This document shows positions 10,921 through 20,937 of a stretch of DNA of 29,427 nt, piece after piece. Positions within the stretch are counted from its first letter, which is position 1. Every line of letters starts with the position of its first letter. Source of the stretch: Candidatus Staskawiczbacteria bacterium (GTDB lineage: Bacteria > Patescibacteriota > Minisyncoccia > Minisyncoccales > Staskawiczbacteraceae); NCBI GenBank assembly GCA_903850725.1, contig CAINMG010000121.1:1-29427 (forward strand), given 5' to 3'. The notes under the pieces were generated by a model. The model searched no databases. It saw only the letters and a program-made list of their open reading frames with translations, and was not told the origin of the DNA. A program made the translations under genes and the position numbers.

Positions 10921-12225
10921 ATGGATTTAACCTCACCTACAGCAATAAAAGAGATTTTAGAAAAATATGAAGTCAAACCATCCAAAAGCTTGGGTCAAAA
11001 TTTTTTGATTGATAAAAATATTTTAAACAAAATTATTTTAGCTGGAAATTTAACAAAAGAAGATGTTGTTTTGGAAGTGGGGCCAGGTGTTGGCACTCTT
11101 ACTTGTGAGTTGGCAAAATCTGCAGGCAAAGTAATTGCCATAGAAAAAGATCATGATATGATAAACATTTTAGCAGAAACTTTAAAAGATTTTAACAATG
11201 TACATATAATAGAAGGCGATGCCTTATCCCTAAACCCTATACCATATACCCTAGACCATAAATATAAGCTAATCGCCAATATTCCCTATTATCTTACCTC
11301 TCACTTAATCCGAACTTTTCTAGAAGCAGAAAACCCTCCCCAAGAAATTGTTTTGCTTATTCAAAAAGAAGTAGCTCAAAGAATATGTGCCAAGCCCCCA
11401 GAAATGAGCTTGCTTGCAGTATCTGTGCAATTTTACGCACAAGCAAAAATTATTTCTTATGTTTCTAAAAACTGTTTTCTACCAGCTCCCAAAGTTGACT
11501 CAGCCATAATTCGCATCACCCCTCATAAAAATGATCGACTCCCGATGTCGATCGGTTTTACGCCAAAAGAATTTTTTAAAATAGTGAAAGCTGGATTTTC
11601 ACATCCTAGAAAGCAGTTGGCAAATAATTTTTGCCAAGCTTTAAAGGTGGAGAGAGAAGTAGTAGAAAGTTGGCTTTCAAAATGCGGTCTCAAACCCAAT
11701 CAGCGCGCAGAAACTCTATCAGTAGATGATTGGAAAAATCTTGCCTCTTACGACCTATCCCTAGCCCTTCCCGAAGGGAAGGGGGTGACGACAAGTCCTT
11801 CCTGTTGGGAAGGATCTAGGATGGGTAGCGAGGGATGGGTGAACGAAACGAAGGGATCCGACATACCTGGTTATTTTACAACTGATGCAAAAACATGGAA
11901 ATTACTTCAAGAAGAAGCTGTTAAAATGAGAAAAAATCCAACAAAAGCAGAAGAAATTCTTTGGAAATATTTGAAAGCAAATAAAAATTACCATTTTAGG
12001 AGACAACAGATTATTGATAAATTTATAGTTGATTTTGTGTGCCTATCTAAAAAAATAATTATTGAGGTTGATGGCAATATTCATAATTTACAAAAACAGA
12101 GAGATGAGGGGCGAACAAAAATTTTAGAAAATCTTGGTTTTAGAGTTTTAAGATTTAAAAATGAAGAAGTCATAGACAATGTAGATATTGTTGTCAGAAA
12201 AATTATAAATACGACCCAACCCTAA
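10921..12225 (+). CDS. rsmA: 16S rRNA dimethyltransferase RsmA/KsgA fused in-frame to a C-terminal DUF559 (Vsr-like) endonuclease
   Basis: KSLGQNFL, VLEVGPGVG, AIEKD, GDAL, ANIPY, PAPKVDS; then MRKNPTKAEEILW, FRRQ, FIVDF, IEVDGNIH, DEGRT, LRFKN (DUF559 pattern). Confidence 0.93.
   Translation: MDLTSPTAIKEILEKYEVKPSKSLGQNFLIDKNILNKIILAGNLTKEDVVLEVGPGVGTLTCELAKSAGKVIAIEKDHDMINILAETLKDFNNVHIIEGDALSLNPIPYTLDHKYKLIANIPYYLTSHLIRTFLEAENPPQEIVLLIQKEVAQRICAKPPEMSLLAVSVQFYAQAKIISYVSKNCFLPAPKVDSAIIRITPHKNDRLPMSIGFTPKEFFKIVKAGFSHPRKQLANNFCQALKVEREVVESWLSKCGLKPNQRAETLSVDDWKNLASYDLSLALPEGKGVTTSPSCWEGSRMGSEGWVNETKGSDIPGYFTTDAKTWKLLQEEAVKMRKNPTKAEEILWKYLKANKNYHFRRQQIIDKFIVDFVCLSKKIIIEVDGNIHNLQKQRDEGRTKILENLGFRVLRFKNEEVIDNVDIVVRKIINTTQP
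11228..11257. repeat. four heptad repeats (CCCTAAA/CCCTATA/CCATATA/CCCTAGA) inside rsmA
   Basis: Direct reading; TATACCCTAGAC (11245-11256) is the exact reverse complement of part of the 20871-20898 unit. Confidence 0.6.
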
Positions 12226-12318
12226 ACACCTATCCCCAGCCCTTCCCGAAGGGAAGGGAAACAAAAGTGCAAGTCCTTCCTTTCAAGTCCTTCCTTTTGG
12301 GAAGGATTTAGGATGGGT
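11753..12318 (+). mobile_element. putative DUF559 endonuclease cassette bounded by hairpin-rich direct repeats
   Basis: Repeat copies at 11753-11826 and 12228-12318; first 31 nt are 30/31 identical and last 35 nt are 33/35 identical. Mobility is inferred. Confidence 0.65.
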
Positions 12319-12326
12319 TTAAAAAG

Positions 12327-12335
12327 TTATCCACA
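12327..12335 (+). promoter_or_regulatory. perfect DnaA box (TTATCCACA)
   Basis: Exact consensus 9-mer, intergenic. Confidence 0.5.
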
Positions 12336-12740: not shown

Positions 12741-13112
12741 ATGACAGAAAATTATCTTTTACAAGATTTTAAAAAAACTATAGACAACCTTGACGAAGTA
12801 TTAAACATGAAAGAAGAAAATATAGTTCGCGATGCGGCCATGAAACGCTTTGATTTGTGTTTTGATACAGCATGGAAATTAGTAAAAAATCTAGCTAAAA
12901 AAGAGGGCATAGAATGTTACTCTCCACGCCAATGTTTCAAAGTTGGTTTTCAGTTAAAATTGCTTGGCCATGATAGCGAATGGGTAGATATGTTAGAAGA
13001 TAGAAATTTGTCTGCACATTTATATAAAGAAGAAGAGGCAATAAAAATTTATACCAGATTACCAGAATATTTAAAATCATTCAAAAAACTATTAATTGAG
13101 GCAGAAAAATAA
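12741..13112 (+). CDS. HEPN / nucleotidyltransferase substrate-binding protein (HepT-like toxin)
   Basis: RDAAMKRFDLCFDTAWK, SPRQCFK, RNLSAHLY (Rx4H); directly downstream of the MNT gene. Confidence 0.85.
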   Translation: MTENYLLQDFKKTIDNLDEVLNMKEENIVRDAAMKRFDLCFDTAWKLVKNLAKKEGIECYSPRQCFKVGFQLKLLGHDSEWVDMLEDRNLSAHLYKEEEAIKIYTRLPEYLKSFKKLLIEAEK

Positions 13113-17358: not shown

Positions 17359-17387
17359 TTGTTGCTTTTTTTTAAAAGTGTTATAAT
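17359..17387 (+). promoter_or_regulatory. extended -10 promoter for the GxxExxY-prgI-virB4 unit
   Basis: TTGTTG, 17-nt spacer, TGt-TATAAT (17382-17387). Confidence 0.55.
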
Positions 17388-17397
17388 AAATCAATTA

Positions 17398-17928
17398 ACA
17401 GATTTACACAGATGCCAAACAGATTAACACAGATCACAGATAAAAATATGACTGATGAAAATTTCTTAGAAAAAGATTTGTCTTACAAGGTTATTGGCGC
17501 AATTTATTCAGTTGCTAATAAATATGGATGCGGTTTAAAAGAGATTGTTTATCAAAAAGCTTTAGCAGAAGAGTTTGAAAAATTGCAAATAAATTGCGAA
17601 CAACAAAAAAGAATTAATATTTATTCTTTAGATAGTGGAAAAGTTTTAGGAGTCTATATCCCAGATTTTCTTATAGAGAACAAAATTATTTTAGAAATAA
17701 AAGCCACGCCATTTACTACTAGACAAAATATTGAGCAACAAAGATCTTATTTAAGAGCTAGTCAATATGAAATTGGGTATTTAGCAAACTTTAATACAAT
17801 AAAATTAGAAATTAAAAGATCAATTTTTACAAATAATAGAAAATCATTTATAACATTAATTTCAAAAACACAAAGTTAGCCAGCATCTGTGATCTGTGAA
17901 AATCTGTCATTTATCTGTGCTAATCTGT
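17398..17928 (+). mobile_element. GxxExxY cassette bounded by 44-bp mirrored (C)ACAGAT / ATCTGT(G) arrays
   Basis: Five units per side with mirror-identical spacers, at 17398-17441 and 17885-17928. Mobility is inferred. Confidence 0.6.
17448..17879 (+). CDS. GxxExxY protein (PD-(D/E)XK nuclease-like family)
   Basis: GCGLKEIVYQKAL = GxxExxY; YIPDFLIENKIILEIKA; GYLANF. Start set at ATG 17448, after the repeats. Confidence 0.9.
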   Translation: MTDENFLEKDLSYKVIGAIYSVANKYGCGLKEIVYQKALAEEFEKLQINCEQQKRINIYSLDSGKVLGVYIPDFLIENKIILEIKATPFTTRQNIEQQRSYLRASQYEIGYLANFNTIKLEIKRSIFTNNRKSFITLISKTQS

Positions 17929-17936
17929 GGCAGTGC

Positions 17937-18344
17937 ATGGAACAATATCCTATTCCACAATTTATTGAGCAAGAAGGGAAAATAGCATTTTTCATTTCTT
18001 TTAGACAATTCTTTTACCTTTGCGGGGGAGGAGTGATTTGTTTTGTTTTATACTATACAGTACCATTTGCAATATTTGCTATTTTGTCCCTAATTGTTAT
18101 GGTAGCAACTGGAGCCTTGGCTTTCTTGGTAATTAATGGCATGCCTTTGGCAAATATACTTTTAAGCTCTGTAGGATTTTTAGCTGGCAGTAAAAATTAT
18201 ACTTGGAAGAAAAAAGAATCTGCTTATCCATTTAAAGCTGTAAAAAGAATCCAAATTAGGAAAATAGATGAAGGCCCAAAACTACAAGCTCAAACAAGTA
18301 GACTTAAAAAAATTCACACACAAGTAGAATTAAGAAGTAAGTAA
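17937..18344 (+). CDS. prgI: PrgI-family membrane protein
   Basis: MEQYPIPQFIEQEGKI...SFRQFFYL, two TMs; start is the ATG just past the right repeat array. Confidence 0.85.
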   Translation: MEQYPIPQFIEQEGKIAFFISFRQFFYLCGGGVICFVLYYTVPFAIFAILSLIVMVATGALAFLVINGMPLANILLSSVGFLAGSKNYTWKKKESAYPFKAVKRIQIRKIDEGPKLQAQTSRLKKIHTQVELRSK

Positions 18345-18355
18345 ATTTAAAGCAA

Positions 18356-19039: not shown

Positions 19040-20857
19040 ATGGCATTTGATTTTATAAATAATTTAATGGAAAAAAAGAAAAAAGATGATTTATTAGACA
19101 AGATCTTTGAAGAAGAAGTTTTTGATGTACGCGATATTATTGCCCCACCTTATGTTGGTGTTGGCCAAGACCACATAAAACTTGGGGAGAGACTTTCCAA
19201 ATCATTTTTTATATTTTCTTATCCAAGATATTTAAACACTGGGTGGTTTTCACCTGTAATTGATTTAAATGTACCAATGGATATTTCCTTTTTTATACAT
19301 CCTGTTTCTAGTGAATTAATTTTAAAAAAATTAAGAAAGAAAATTACTGAAGTTTCTTCAGAAATAATTGAAAGAGAAGAAAAGGGCTTAATTCGCGATC
19401 CATCACTGCAAACTGCTTATCAAGATATTGAAAATTTGCGAGATAAATTAATGACAGCTCAAGAAAGAATGTTCAGGTTTGGTTTGTATATTACTATTTA
19501 TGACAATTCAGAAAAAGAACTAAGAGAAACAGAACTTACATTGCGATCAATCTTTGAATCAAGATTAATATATATTAAACCTGCATTATTCCGCCAAAAA
19601 GAAGGATTTATTTCTTGCAATCCTTATGGAATGGATTTACTTGATGTACATGTGCCCATGGATACAGAGACTTTGTCCACTGCTTTTCCATTTATTTCTT
19701 TTGACTTAAGTTCTAATGAAGGAATATTATATGGCATAAATAGGCACAACAATTCTTTAGTGCTATTTGATAGGTTTAGCTTGGAAAATGCCAACATGGT
19801 AGTGTTTGCAAAATCTGGTTCAGGAAAATCTTATGCTATAAAGCTTGAGATTTTAAGATATTTAATGCAAGGAGTAGATTGTATTATTATTGATCCTGAA
19901 AATGAATATGAAGCTTTAGCTGATTCAATTGGTGGAGCGTTTTTTAAGATTTCTCTGACTTCAGAAAATCATGTAAACCCTTTTGATTTACCTGTGCCAG
20001 GTCCTGGAGAAAATCCTGAAGATGTTTTAAGAGGAAACATTATCAACTTAGTTGGGCTACTTCGTATTATGCTTGGGGGCTTATCAGCAGAAGAAGATAG
20101 TATTATTGATGAGGCATTGACTCAAACTTATGCAATAAGAGATATTACTGCAACTTCTGACCCTGCAAAATGGAAAGAAAACACTCCTTTGATGTCGGAC
20201 TTTGAAGAGATTTTAAATAGCATGCAAGGAGCAGAATCTTTAGCCAGAAGACTTGGCAAATATACCAAAGGAACTTTTTCTGATTTCTTTAACCAAAAAT
20301 CAAATTTAGAAATGGATAAAAACTTAGTTGTATTTGGTATAAGAGATATGGAAGAGTCTTTAAGGCCAATGGCTTTGTACATTATAATGCGCTATGTGTG
20401 GAACATTGTAAGATCTCAAATTAAAAAAAGAATTTTAGTAATTGAAGAAGCTTGGCTTTTAATGCAATCTGAAGACGGGGCATCTTTCTTATTTGGATTA
20501 GCAAAAAGAGGTAGAAAATATTATTTGGGGGTTACCACAATTACTCAAGATGTAGCTGATTTTATGGGTTCTGAATATGGAAAAGCAATTATATCTAACT
20601 CTTCATTGCAACTTTTACTTAAACAATCACCAGCCACAGTAGAGGTTGTAAAACAAACATTTAATTTAACTGATCAGGAAAAATATTTATTACTTGAAGC
20701 AGGTGTTGGGGAAGGATTATTTTTTGCTGGTAAAAAACATGTGGCTATTTCTATTGTTGCTAGCCAAACTGAAGATAGAATTATTACAACCAATCCAAAA
20801 ATAGTTATGGAAAGAGGAGAAGCAAAAAGAAAAATAAACGAAGCAAAAAACCAATAA
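19040..20857 (+). CDS. virB4: VirB4-like ATPase
   Basis: NMVVFAKSGSGKS (Walker A), IIIDPENEY, VNPFD, ILVIEEAW (Walker B region), KRGRKY...TQD. Confidence 0.88.
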   Translation: MAFDFINNLMEKKKKDDLLDKIFEEEVFDVRDIIAPPYVGVGQDHIKLGERLSKSFFIFSYPRYLNTGWFSPVIDLNVPMDISFFIHPVSSELILKKLRKKITEVSSEIIEREEKGLIRDPSLQTAYQDIENLRDKLMTAQERMFRFGLYITIYDNSEKELRETELTLRSIFESRLIYIKPALFRQKEGFISCNPYGMDLLDVHVPMDTETLSTAFPFISFDLSSNEGILYGINRHNNSLVLFDRFSLENANMVVFAKSGSGKSYAIKLEILRYLMQGVDCIIIDPENEYEALADSIGGAFFKISLTSENHVNPFDLPVPGPGENPEDVLRGNIINLVGLLRIMLGGLSAEEDSIIDEALTQTYAIRDITATSDPAKWKENTPLMSDFEEILNSMQGAESLARRLGKYTKGTFSDFFNQKSNLEMDKNLVVFGIRDMEESLRPMALYIIMRYVWNIVRSQIKKRILVIEEAWLLMQSEDGASFLFGLAKRGRKYYLGVTTITQDVADFMGSEYGKAIISNSSLQLLLKQSPATVEVVKQTFNLTDQEKYLLLEAGVGEGLFFAGKKHVAISIVASQTEDRIITTNPKIVMERGEAKRKINEAKNQ

Positions 20858-20870
20858 TTTAAAAACTAAA

Positions 20871-20937
20871 GCGTCTAGGGTATAGCGTCTAGGGTATAGT
20901 AATTGCTAAACCCTAAACCCTAAACCCTAAACCCTAG
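20871..20937. repeat. inverted heptad arrays (GCGTCTAGGGTATA x2 / TAAACCC x4)
   Basis: 14-mer at 20871 and 20885; TAAACCC at 20907, 20914, 20921 and 20928, then TAG. Confidence 0.85.

What the first reader, a model, noticed from the sequence alone, without database searches (positions are those of the whole stretch)
17398..17928. GxxExxY nuclease-like gene bracketed by exactly mirrored, helically phased 44-bp repeat arrays
Seen: left arm ACAGAT-3-CACAGAT-5-ACAGAT-3-CACAGAT-CACAGAT; right arm ATCTGTG-ATCTGTG-3-ATCTGT-5-ATCTGTG-3-ATCTGT. All 33 unit positions are complementary, while only 2 of 11 spacer positions match. The ACAGAT starts are 10, 11, 10 and 7 bp apart, mostly on one helical face. 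Conserved units with free spacers point to protein-binding sites, not simple hairpin pairing. The cassette sits between the promoter and prgI without breaking the operon. Inference: a transposase-less mobile or regulatory unit whose only protein is a PD-(D/E)XK-fold GxxExxY.
Basis: partly seen in the sequence, partly recalled or inferred. Interest (0 to 1): 0.75.

Follow-up and report, generated by a model that had tools for sequence, protein, structure and literature searches.

The report
Nuclease gene boxed by mirrored repeats
A small nuclease gene of unknown function sits between two mirror-image arrays of a 7-base word; the same arrays are scattered without the gene through this tiny genome, so it looks like an undescribed nuclease-plus-own-repeat element, comparable to REP/RAYT or Ssn/NTS systems.

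Summary
The arms lie 6 nt before the ATG and 5 nt after the stop of a 143-aa GxxExxY (PF13366/TIGR04256) gene, between a conserved extended -10 box and prgI.

It is not a local oddity.
- The same five-unit arm occurs at 12 other sites in this 1.0-Mb lake-water Patescibacteria genome. These are mostly ~100-bp gene-less palindromes that share a loop sequence and abut gene ends.
- The second GxxExxY paralogue has mirrored arrays of another word (ACGCTGA).
- Mirrored arms flank 22/27 homologues in relatives and 54/77 across phyla (controls 0/27 and 3/77).
- The unit word follows the protein clade and the cargo family: an NCRRA theme in 53/70 GxxExxY cassettes against 1/19 four-helix-bundle cassettes.
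- Dispersed arrays are abundant only in genomes that carry the cognate gene.
- Filled and empty sites exist in recG, the ribosomal-protein operon and the prgI leader.

Best reading: a promoter-less nuclease cassette with its own cognate repeats and MITE-like derivatives. Binding, cleavage and the mobility mechanism are inferred, not shown. Helical phasing is not a family trait. I found no paper describing this. Unchecked notes of this scan report the same layout on other DNA many times.

The parts
17359..17387 (+). Host promoter of the prgI operon: weak -35 (TTGTTG, 17359-17364) and extended -10 (TGtTATAAT, 17379-17387). The cassette starts 10 nt downstream.
   Evidence: Read from the sequence. 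In cassette-free prgI loci from metagenomes the same TGnTATAAT box lies only 6-8 nt before the prgI ATG. The consensus scan did not list it because the -35 matches 3/6.
17398..17441 (+). Left arm: five units, ACAGAT-3-CACAGAT-5-ACAGAT-3-CACAGAT-CACAGAT.
   Evidence: Zero mismatches to the genome-wide family pattern.
17448..17879 (+). GxxExxY gene, 143 aa, PD-(D/E)XK fold, catalytic E32/D73/E83/K85 present.
   Evidence: PF13366 E 6.6e-29 and TIGR04256 E 1.3e-29. E32, D73 and K85 are invariant and E83 is kept in at least 90% of 74 sequences. AlphaFold2 model with alignment has pLDDT 91.8; best structural matches are restriction-endonuclease-like folds, Z up to 7.5.
17885..17928 (-). Right arm, mirror image of the left arm (five units).
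   Evidence: 33/33 unit positions complementary to the left arm, 2/11 spacer positions.
17937..18344 (+). prgI-family gene (host operon, context): first gene of a type-IV-secretion-like operon, followed by a 221-aa gene and a VirB4/TraG-like ATPase.
   Evidence: PF12666 E 1.7e-7; PF19044 for 19040-20857.
18345..18355 (.). Empty junction between prgI and the next gene. The same junction holds a gene-less ACAGAT palindrome in congener G003 and a full cassette with a 75%-identical GxxExxY gene in G262.

Best explanation
The region is one copy of a widespread, promoter-less gene cassette with the layout [array of yACrrAT-type units] - GxxExxY nuclease gene - [mirror array]. The cassette rides on host transcription. 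Here it sits in what is otherwise a leaderless 5' end of the prgI operon.

The most likely working model has three steps.
1. Inferred, about 0.7: the GxxExxY protein is a metal-dependent PD-(D/E)XK enzyme that recognises its own 6-7-nt unit. Several subunits probably bind the 4-5 units of each arm.
2. Shown comparatively: the arms act as the element's ends, so cassette and arms are gained as one block at gene junctions without a target-site duplication. The arms also exist as gene-less, hairpin-forming ~100-bp palindromes that multiply as their own MITE/REPIN-like lineage.
3. Inferred, about 0.4-0.5: the nuclease acts in trans on these arrays, probably on folded single-stranded DNA, to move or maintain them.

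As in REP/RAYT and Ssn/NTS systems, the dispersed repeats and the flanked gene form one co-evolving pair. Whether that pair is now selfish or partly useful to the host is open.
For: (1) Dispersed family in the same genome. The five-unit arm pattern (up to 7 mismatches in 33) is found 15 times. CACAGATCACAGAT with up to 1 mismatch is found 19 times against 0 for the reversed control. Nine elements, the window's arms among them, align at 61-88% identity; the two C76 copies are 96% identical, and several gene-less copies share a related loop, so they are copies of one another. Every element lies outside the called ORFs (one end overlaps an ORF call by 8 nt); most stand within 0-14 nt of a gene end on at least one side.
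(2) The second paralogue (G000:C118) has mirrored arrays of a different word, ACGCTGA.
(3) Generality. Inverted-repeat score of at least 45 in 22/27 loci in relatives and 54/77 loci across phyla; reversed controls give 0/27 and 3/77.
(4) The unit follows the protein. The window's clade (48-75% identity; G262, G013, G095, plus L168 at 56%) keeps CAC(A/G)GAT at different genomic sites. A clade of 10 proteins mostly carries TACGAA-type units (7 of 10; one ACAAAT, two with no unit called).
(5) The unit theme is cargo-specific: NCRRA in 53/70 GxxExxY cassettes against 1/19 PF05635 cassettes from the same kind of genomes.
(6) Units are under sequence constraint: 1.80 against 0.75 bits, and 95% against 56% complementarity. 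There is no G.U against A.C asymmetry on the sense strand (63:63 and 61:62), so RNA pairing alone does not explain the pattern.
(7) Gene and repeats co-occur. TACGAA doublets number 2-30 per genome in the 8 genomes with a TACGAA-type gene and 0-3 in the other 33. Six of the eight have copies away from the cassette. The ACAGAT doublet gives 19 hits in G000, 4-5 degenerate hits in congeners without the cognate gene, and 0 in three other genomes.
(8) Gain as a block. The whole cassette sits in frame in recG of G016 but not in the recG of its congener G024 or of four other genomes. ACAGAT palindromes in the G000 ribosomal-protein operon are absent at the same junctions in G002 and G003.
(9) Catalytic residues are invariant, and the cargo runs in the same direction as both neighbours in 41 cases against 2.
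Against: No biochemical or population-level evidence exists. Contigs from four lake metagenomes show no excised or joined form. Nothing shows that the protein binds or cuts the units. Unrelated four-helix-bundle (PF05635) genes use the same architecture, so a nuclease is not needed for the layout. Gene-less ACAGAT palindromes persist in G001 and G003 without the cognate gene. No target-site duplication or conserved target was found. The genomes compared are related to one another and are not independent samples. A unit shared by a clade is also expected from simple co-inheritance, although neutral DNA would be randomised at these protein distances. An earlier unchecked note of this scan says no movement was seen among near-identical strains.
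Confidence: 0.6

Rival explanations
1. RNA-level intervening-sequence model. The arms matter only as a long stem in the operon transcript. RNase III cuts the stem and releases the small cargo mRNA, as in 23S rRNA intervening sequences. The repeated units are a historical by-product.
For: The arms pair in the predicted fold of the 539-nt transcript, in both the minimum-energy and centroid structures (z -4.6, 0 of 100 shuffles). Cassettes are almost always co-directional with their host genes (41 against 2). PF05635, the family named for rRNA intervening sequences, occupies the same architecture and the very same site in G001. Excision of such an element by RNase III is documented for Coxiella (PMC4990558).
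Against: Pairing alone does not require identical units within an arm, a cargo-specific unit theme (53/70 against 1/19), or units kept across 48-75% protein identity. There is no excess of G.U over A.C mismatches on the sense strand (63:63). The C20 palindrome folds better on the non-transcribed strand (-19.8 against -14.6 kcal/mol). An in-frame copy inside an intact 880-aa recG could not be excised without ligation. Gene-less copies spread to new loci.
Confidence: 0.15
2. Domesticated host system of the Ssn/NTS kind. The nuclease cuts single-stranded DNA at its dispersed arrays to modulate DNA uptake, recombination or conjugation. The arrays are kept for the host's benefit, not through the element's own mobility.
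For: The layout matches the published Ssn case: a small nuclease gene flanked on both sides by its cognate dispersed hairpin repeat, with many repeats only in genomes that hold the gene (PMC11893778). The window copy and its 75% relative both sit in a conjugation-like operon. Units in gene-less copies remain well kept.
Against: Copy numbers are tens, not hundreds. The gene is patchy: PF13366 is found in 16 of 41 related genomes. It is replaced by other cassettes at the same site. It occurs in frame inside recG, and decaying copies with stop codons exist (L024, L027). This pattern fits a selfish gain-and-loss element better.
Confidence: 0.15
3. Local regulator. The arrays are operators through which GxxExxY, or another factor, controls the prgI / type-IV-secretion operon.
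For: The position between the promoter and the first gene. The prgI leader recurrently holds palindromic arrays in other genomes.
Against: The same arms lie at 12 other, unrelated sites in this genome, including the ribosomal-protein operon and both sides of pth. Most prgI loci have no insert. The inserts that occur have unrelated units and cargos.
Confidence: 0.04

Closest known systems
REP / RAYT (REPIN) systems
   Same: A single-copy gene flanked by its cognate repeats in inverted orientation. The same repeats are dispersed in the genome as hairpin-forming inverted doublets at gene ends. Each gene lineage has its own repeat word. No target-site duplication.
   Different: RAYT is an HUH/Y1 transposase of the IS200/IS605 kind, whereas this gene is a ~140-aa PD-(D/E)XK protein. 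Each arm is an array of 4-5 short units with loosely constrained spacers, not one ~20-nt imperfect palindrome. Copy numbers are tens. The gene is patchy and often lost.
Ssn / NTS (site-specific ssDNA nucleases, GIY-YIG; Chenal et al. 2025, PMC11893778)
   Same: A small stand-alone nuclease gene flanked on both sides by its own dispersed hairpin repeat. The repeat variant co-varies with the nuclease lineage. The family is widespread across phyla.
   Different: A different nuclease superfamily (GIY-YIG against PD-(D/E)XK) and a different repeat design. For Ssn, ssDNA cleavage and an effect on transformation are shown; here nothing is shown biochemically.
ORF-bearing 23S rRNA intervening sequences (Coxiella, Leptospira; S23p / PF05635; PMC4990558)
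   Same: A ~430-530-nt insert made of a small ORF between terminal inverted repeats that can form a stem, sitting inside a transcribed host unit and sporadically distributed. PF05635 cassettes with mirrored arrays occupy the same prgI site in congener G001.
   Different: It is not in rRNA. The cargo is a nuclease, not a four-helix bundle. The arms are unit arrays with mismatched spacers, not a near-perfect 28-bp stem. RNase III processing is untested.
MITEs that land in frame in genes (Rickettsia palindromic elements)
   Same: Short palindromic elements at gene junctions, sometimes translated in frame (recG of G016; single arms inside other genes of this genome).
   Different: Here an autonomous-looking partner gene with matching ends is identifiable, and no DDE transposase or target-site duplication is seen.

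Membership tests
GxxExxY protein (TIGR04256; Pfam PF13366 PDDEXK_3) | HMM score above the curated cut-offs | tested here: met
   PF13366 101.1 bits (cut-off 22); TIGR04256 102.9 bits (cut-off 35).
GxxExxY protein (TIGR04256; Pfam PF13366 PDDEXK_3) | PD-(D/E)XK catalytic residues (E in helix 1, D, E-x-K) and the restriction-endonuclease-like fold | tested here: met
   E32, D73 and K85 invariant, E83 kept in at least 90% of 74 sequences. Model pLDDT 91.8. Best matches are restriction-endonuclease-like folds (Z 7.5, 3ijm) and Cas4 / lambda exonuclease.
REP/RAYT (REPIN) system | The gene is a RAYT (HUH/Y1 transposase, IS200/IS605-like) | tested here: not met
   Only PF13366 is found in the cargo.
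REP/RAYT (REPIN) system | Gene flanked by cognate repeats in inverted orientation, and the same repeats dispersed as inverted doublets | tested here: met
Ssn/NTS system | GIY-YIG nuclease of the Ssn family | tested here: not met
   No GIY-YIG match; the fold is PD-(D/E)XK.
Ssn/NTS system | Sequence-specific cleavage of single-stranded DNA at the repeat | not testable with these tools
   Needs purified protein.
23S rRNA intervening sequence | Inserted in a helix of the 23S (or 16S) rRNA gene | tested here: not met
   No Rfam match in the window. The insert lies between a promoter and prgI.
23S rRNA intervening sequence | Terminal inverted repeats that form a stem enclosing a small ORF | tested here: met
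   The arms pair in the minimum-energy and centroid folds, z -4.6.
23S rRNA intervening sequence | Excision by RNase III | not testable with these tools
   No RNA run holds the region.
Classical DDE transposon / MITE | Target-site duplication flanking terminal inverted repeats | tested here: not met
   No duplication at three filled/empty comparisons: recG, the rplN junction and the prgI-downstream junction.

The most novel reading that the evidence does not exclude
GxxExxY proteins are a large family of unit-specific nucleases. Each is matched to a 6-7-nt word and mobilises its own array-bounded cassette and gene-less palindromes without any transposase or recombinase. This would be a new class of mobile element. 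Four-helix-bundle cassettes, including the classical rRNA intervening sequences, would be its sister branch. The natural protein/word pairs (CACAGAT, ACGCTGA, TACGAAT and others) would form a ready-made specificity code.
Probability: 0.3. Interest if true: 0.8.

Novelty: new variant of a known kind. Interest (0 to 1): 0.62.

Why it matters
PF13366/TIGR04256 is a large family; the 2012 survey of the PD-(D/E)XK superfamily lists it as 'Unknown' (PMC3424549). Full-text searches found no paper that links it to repeat arrays.

If the reading holds, several things follow.
- A function and a natural substrate are assigned to the family.
- A third nuclease superfamily is added to the nuclease-with-own-dispersed-repeat theme (RAYT/REP, Ssn/NTS).
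- A class of palindromic repeats in streamlined Patescibacteria genomes is explained.
- The origin of rRNA intervening sequences becomes testable, because four-helix-bundle cassettes share the design and even the insertion site.
- This genome offers an orthogonal pair for a clean experiment: two paralogues with two different words.

Tried and rejected
- Chance or assembly artefact: rejected. The arms are covered by contigs of independent runs of one study.
- Cargo swap within shared arms in G001: rejected. The G001 cassette at the same site has ATTACAA units, not ACAGAT, so it is an independent insertion.
- Spacer bias as local compositional drift: dropped. The gene-less copies share spacers and loops by descent.
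- RNA-wobble test: no asymmetry.
- Sequencing runs: four lake-water DNA runs hold the region as short low-depth contigs. They show no joints and no excised form, and one divergent allele upstream of the arm (record 3). No RNA holder is listed.
- Single-sequence AlphaFold2 failed (pLDDT 32.6).
- Sequence search of the PDB: no hit at E up to 1.
- Rfam: nothing in the window.
- PADLOC: only a 14-bit chance-level hit. PHROGs: nothing.
- Consensus promoter scan: finds only the divergent SPFH-gene promoter. The prgI promoter was assigned from comparative data instead.
- Conserved target sequence or target-site duplication: none found.

Full report
**1. What is in the window**

The two arms are exactly as described. 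The left arm is 17398-17441 and the right arm is 17885-17928. All 33 of 33 unit positions are complementary and 2 of 11 spacer positions match. ACAGAT starts are 10, 11, 10 and 7 nt apart. ACAGAT occurs 27 times in the window against 12.1 +/- 3.8 in shuffles, and ten of those copies lie in the arms.

The enclosed ORF matches PF13366 (E 6.6e-29) and TIGR04256 'GxxExxY' (E 1.3e-29). The likely start is the ATG at 17448, giving 143 aa. The arms then stand 6 nt before the start and 5 nt after the stop, and the right arm ends 8 nt before the prgI ATG.

Upstream lies an extended -10 box (TGtTATAAT, 17379-17387). In cassette-free prgI loci from metagenomes the same box sits only 6-8 nt before the prgI ATG. 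The operon is therefore normally leaderless, and here the cassette fills the space between the transcription start and the ATG. Downstream follow prgI, a 221-aa gene and a VirB4/TraG-like ATPase.

The genome is a 1.01-Mb, 33% G+C assembly of 159 contigs. Runs that hold the region are lake-water metagenomes. Close protein relatives are labelled Patescibacteria, for example Staskawiczbacteria.

**2. The arms are a dispersed family in this genome**

CACAGATCACAGAT with up to one mismatch occurs 19 times in the genome, against 0 for the reversed control. The whole five-unit pattern is found 15 times.

Most copies are compact ~100-bp palindromes with the layout arm, ~12-nt loop, arm. They lie at C20:5561-5660, C20:6958-7057, C76:2000-2101, C76:2682-2783, C94, C136 and C155. 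There are also single arms on C23, C78, C84, C104 and C123.

- Unit positions carry 1.80 bits and spacers 0.75 bits.
- The aligned elements, the window's arms among them, are 61-88% identical; the two C76 copies are 96% identical. Several gene-less copies share a related loop, so they are copies of each other and not independent deletions.
- Every element lies outside the called ORFs (one end overlaps an ORF call by 8 nt). Most stand within 0-14 nt of a gene end on at least one side. Sites include two junctions of the ribosomal-protein operon and both sides of pth.
- The arms around the gene are the only copies with no mismatch.
- As single strands the palindromes fold with z -4.2 to -7.0. In the 539-nt cassette transcript the arms pair, with z -4.6.

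**3. The layout is a property of the gene family**

The second paralogue (G000:C118, 134 aa) is bracketed by mirrored arrays of a different word, ACGCTGA, spaced 11-12 nt.

PF13366 is found in 16 of 41 related genomes. Aligning the left flank to the reverse complement of the right flank scores at least 45 in 22/27 loci, against 0/27 for a reversed (not complemented) control. A scan of one genome per species returned 80 loci from many phyla: many Patescibacteria classes, Saccharibacteria, Bacteroidota and others. There 54/77 loci score at least 45, against 3/77 for controls. A word repeated at least twice in both arms is found in 49/77, against 5/77 for the direct-orientation control.

Arm geometry varies. 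The modal form has four units spaced about 7-8, 10-11 and 8 nt. The window's form, five units at 10/11/10/7, recurs in L168 (56% identity; ACGGAT five times at 10/14/10/7). Helical phasing is therefore not conserved.

Family-wide, unit positions are 95% complementary and spacers 56%, against 32% expected. The spacer figure is inflated because unit edges are counted as spacer.

**4. The unit word goes with the protein**

In a tree of 26 proteins the window's protein is sister to L030, which has CACAGA units. Support is 99/96, although the two are about 1.3 substitutions per site apart. The two CGCTGA proteins pair with each other. A clade of ten is mostly of TACGAA type: seven of ten, with one ACAAAT and two with no unit called.

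Closer relatives found later agree.
- G262 (75% identity) has ACGGAT/ACAGAT arms.
- G095 (48% identity) has CACAGAT four times, at an unrelated locus.

Across all cassettes with a callable unit, 53/70 GxxExxY cassettes share an NCRRA core (TACGAAT, TACAAAT, TACAGAT, CACAGAT, ACGGAT and so on). Only 1/19 four-helix-bundle cassettes from the same genomes do.

A stem alone would allow compensatory change, and neutral DNA would be randomised at these protein distances. Mismatches show no G.U excess on the sense strand (63:63 and 61:62). This points to sequence-specific recognition, and the cargo protein is the most economical candidate. That step is inference.

**5. Gene and dispersed arrays co-occur**

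TACGAA doublets number 2-30 per genome in the eight genomes with a TACGAA-type GxxExxY gene. Those eight come from eight genera. The other 33 genomes have 0-3, and the reversed control gives 0-2 throughout. In six of the eight genomes many doublets lie away from the cassette as compact palindromes.

For the window's word the counts are:
- G000, 19 hits, five of them exact;
- congeners G001 and G003, which lack the cognate gene, 4-5 hits, all degenerate;
- G002, G013 and G005, none.

These genomes are related to one another, so the counts are suggestive and not a formal test.

**6. Gain and loss as a block**

- **recG.** In G016 a whole cassette (GCAGAT arms plus gene) lies in frame in recG between helicase motifs II and III, giving an intact 880-aa frame. 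The congener G024 and four other genomes have an uninterrupted recG of 714-763 aa. The insert runs exactly from the outermost unit to the outermost unit, with no target-site duplication.
- **Ribosomal-protein operon.** The two palindromes of G000 are absent at the same junctions in G002 and G003. G001 has other palindromic elements there.
- **The prgI operon.** G001 has, at the very same place as the window's cassette, a PF05635 four-helix-bundle gene between ATTACAA arrays, plus hicAB. G003 has a gene-less ACAGAT palindrome between prgI and the next gene. G262 has a full cassette with the 75% orthologue at that junction. The window is empty there, at 18345-18355.
- **prgI loci from metagenomes.** Among the 80 loci fetched, most have no cargo gene upstream. 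Fourteen have a cargo gene at -400 to -75 (eight GxxExxY of a TACTAA type and six four-helix-bundle genes of several lineages). Others have gene-less palindromes of various words. L112 carries the AATTTG units of the L084/L086 cassettes without the gene.

The gene is therefore not stably syntenic with prgI, and this leader is a recurrent landing or survival site.

**7. Expression logic and the protein**

With the cargo oriented forward, both neighbours are co-directional in 41 loci and both opposite in 2. The upstream neighbour is co-directional in 51 of 56. The cassette has no promoter of its own in the window.

E32, D73 and K85 are invariant and E83 nearly so. The model built with an alignment (pLDDT 91.8) has a minimal PD-(D/E)XK fold. 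Its matches are only distant: Z up to 7.5 to restriction-endonuclease-like proteins, and weak Foldseek hits to Cas4 and lambda exonuclease.

**8. Reading**

The best-supported picture is a promoter-less cassette whose nuclease recognises its own repeat word. Its arms serve as element ends and also live on as a MITE/REPIN-like population.

What is shown:
- the architecture;
- its generality;
- the specificity of the unit to protein clade and cargo family;
- dispersal of gene-less copies;
- co-occurrence with the gene;
- block insertions.

What is inferred:
- binding and cleavage;
- the strandedness of the substrate;
- whether the nuclease drives the spread.

The rivals are not exclusive of this picture. 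They are an RNA stem processed like an rRNA intervening sequence, a domesticated Ssn-like role, and a local operator. The four-helix-bundle cassettes show that the layout does not need a nuclease, which keeps the mechanism open.

**9. Comparison and novelty**

The nearest systems in print are three:
- REP/RAYT;
- Ssn/NTS (PMC11893778);
- ORF-bearing 23S rRNA intervening sequences (PMC4990558), with PF05635 ORFs also reported in rRNA insertions of candidate-phyla-radiation bacteria (PMC11270868).

Full-text searches for GxxExxY, PDDEXK_3 and PF13366 found no description of the array association.

Earlier unchecked notes of this scan report the same layout on other DNA many times and pointed me to the Ssn paper.

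Noticed in passing
window 20868-20937: Gene-less mirrored array between the VirB4-like gene and the next ORF: TAGGGT twice, then AACCCTA four times (telomere-like heptamer). The TTTAGGG word is the unit of a four-helix-bundle cassette in relative G005 (L051).
   Followed up: partly
window 10921-12225 (repeats at about 11793-11826 and 12295-12330): rRNA adenine dimethylase (KsgA/RsmA) fused in frame to a DUF559 (Vsr-like PD-(D/E)XK) domain. The domain is bracketed by two direct copies of a GC-rich hairpin repeat found nowhere else in the genome.
   Followed up: partly
G000:C118 4982-5010 (L002 2993-3021): A single ACGCTGA-type arm lies in frame inside a 443-aa membrane-protein gene (translated about SAEINADNTLIIR), 1.1 kb from the ACGCTGA cassette.
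   Followed up: partly
G000:C84 5130-5157 and 5582-5609; G000:C76 about 2410-2450: TTGTAG/CTACAA arrays, the unit of a four-helix-bundle cassette in G003 (L047), lie inside coding sequence: a membrane ORF, the GIY-YIG region of a uvrC-like gene, and pth. They read as SYKLQP-type peptides.
   Followed up: no
L038 399-917 (G001:C20): A hicB-like / hicA toxin-antitoxin pair is inserted upstream of the prgI promoter in congener G001 but is absent from the window.
   Followed up: no
L165 / L164 (G001:C38), ribosomal-protein operon junctions: G001 carries two other palindromic element families at the very junctions where G000 has ACAGAT palindromes. One is a ~90-nt hairpin starting GAACTTTTTTGGAAGTTGCGACC. 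The other is of the GTCATTGCGAG... type, which is also seen at G000:C84 10610.
   Followed up: no
relatives G005, G010, G013, G015, G016: GxxExxY and PF05635 cassettes often lie within 1-4 kb of each other, for example G005:C1 10342 and 11920, and G013:C3 173779 and 175525. This suggests shared hot spots.
   Followed up: no
window 12741-13112: A nucleotidyltransferase-substrate-binding (HEPN-like) small gene, preceded by an apparent nucleotidyltransferase ORF, lies next to the DUF559 cassette. It is probably a toxin-antitoxin pair.
   Followed up: no
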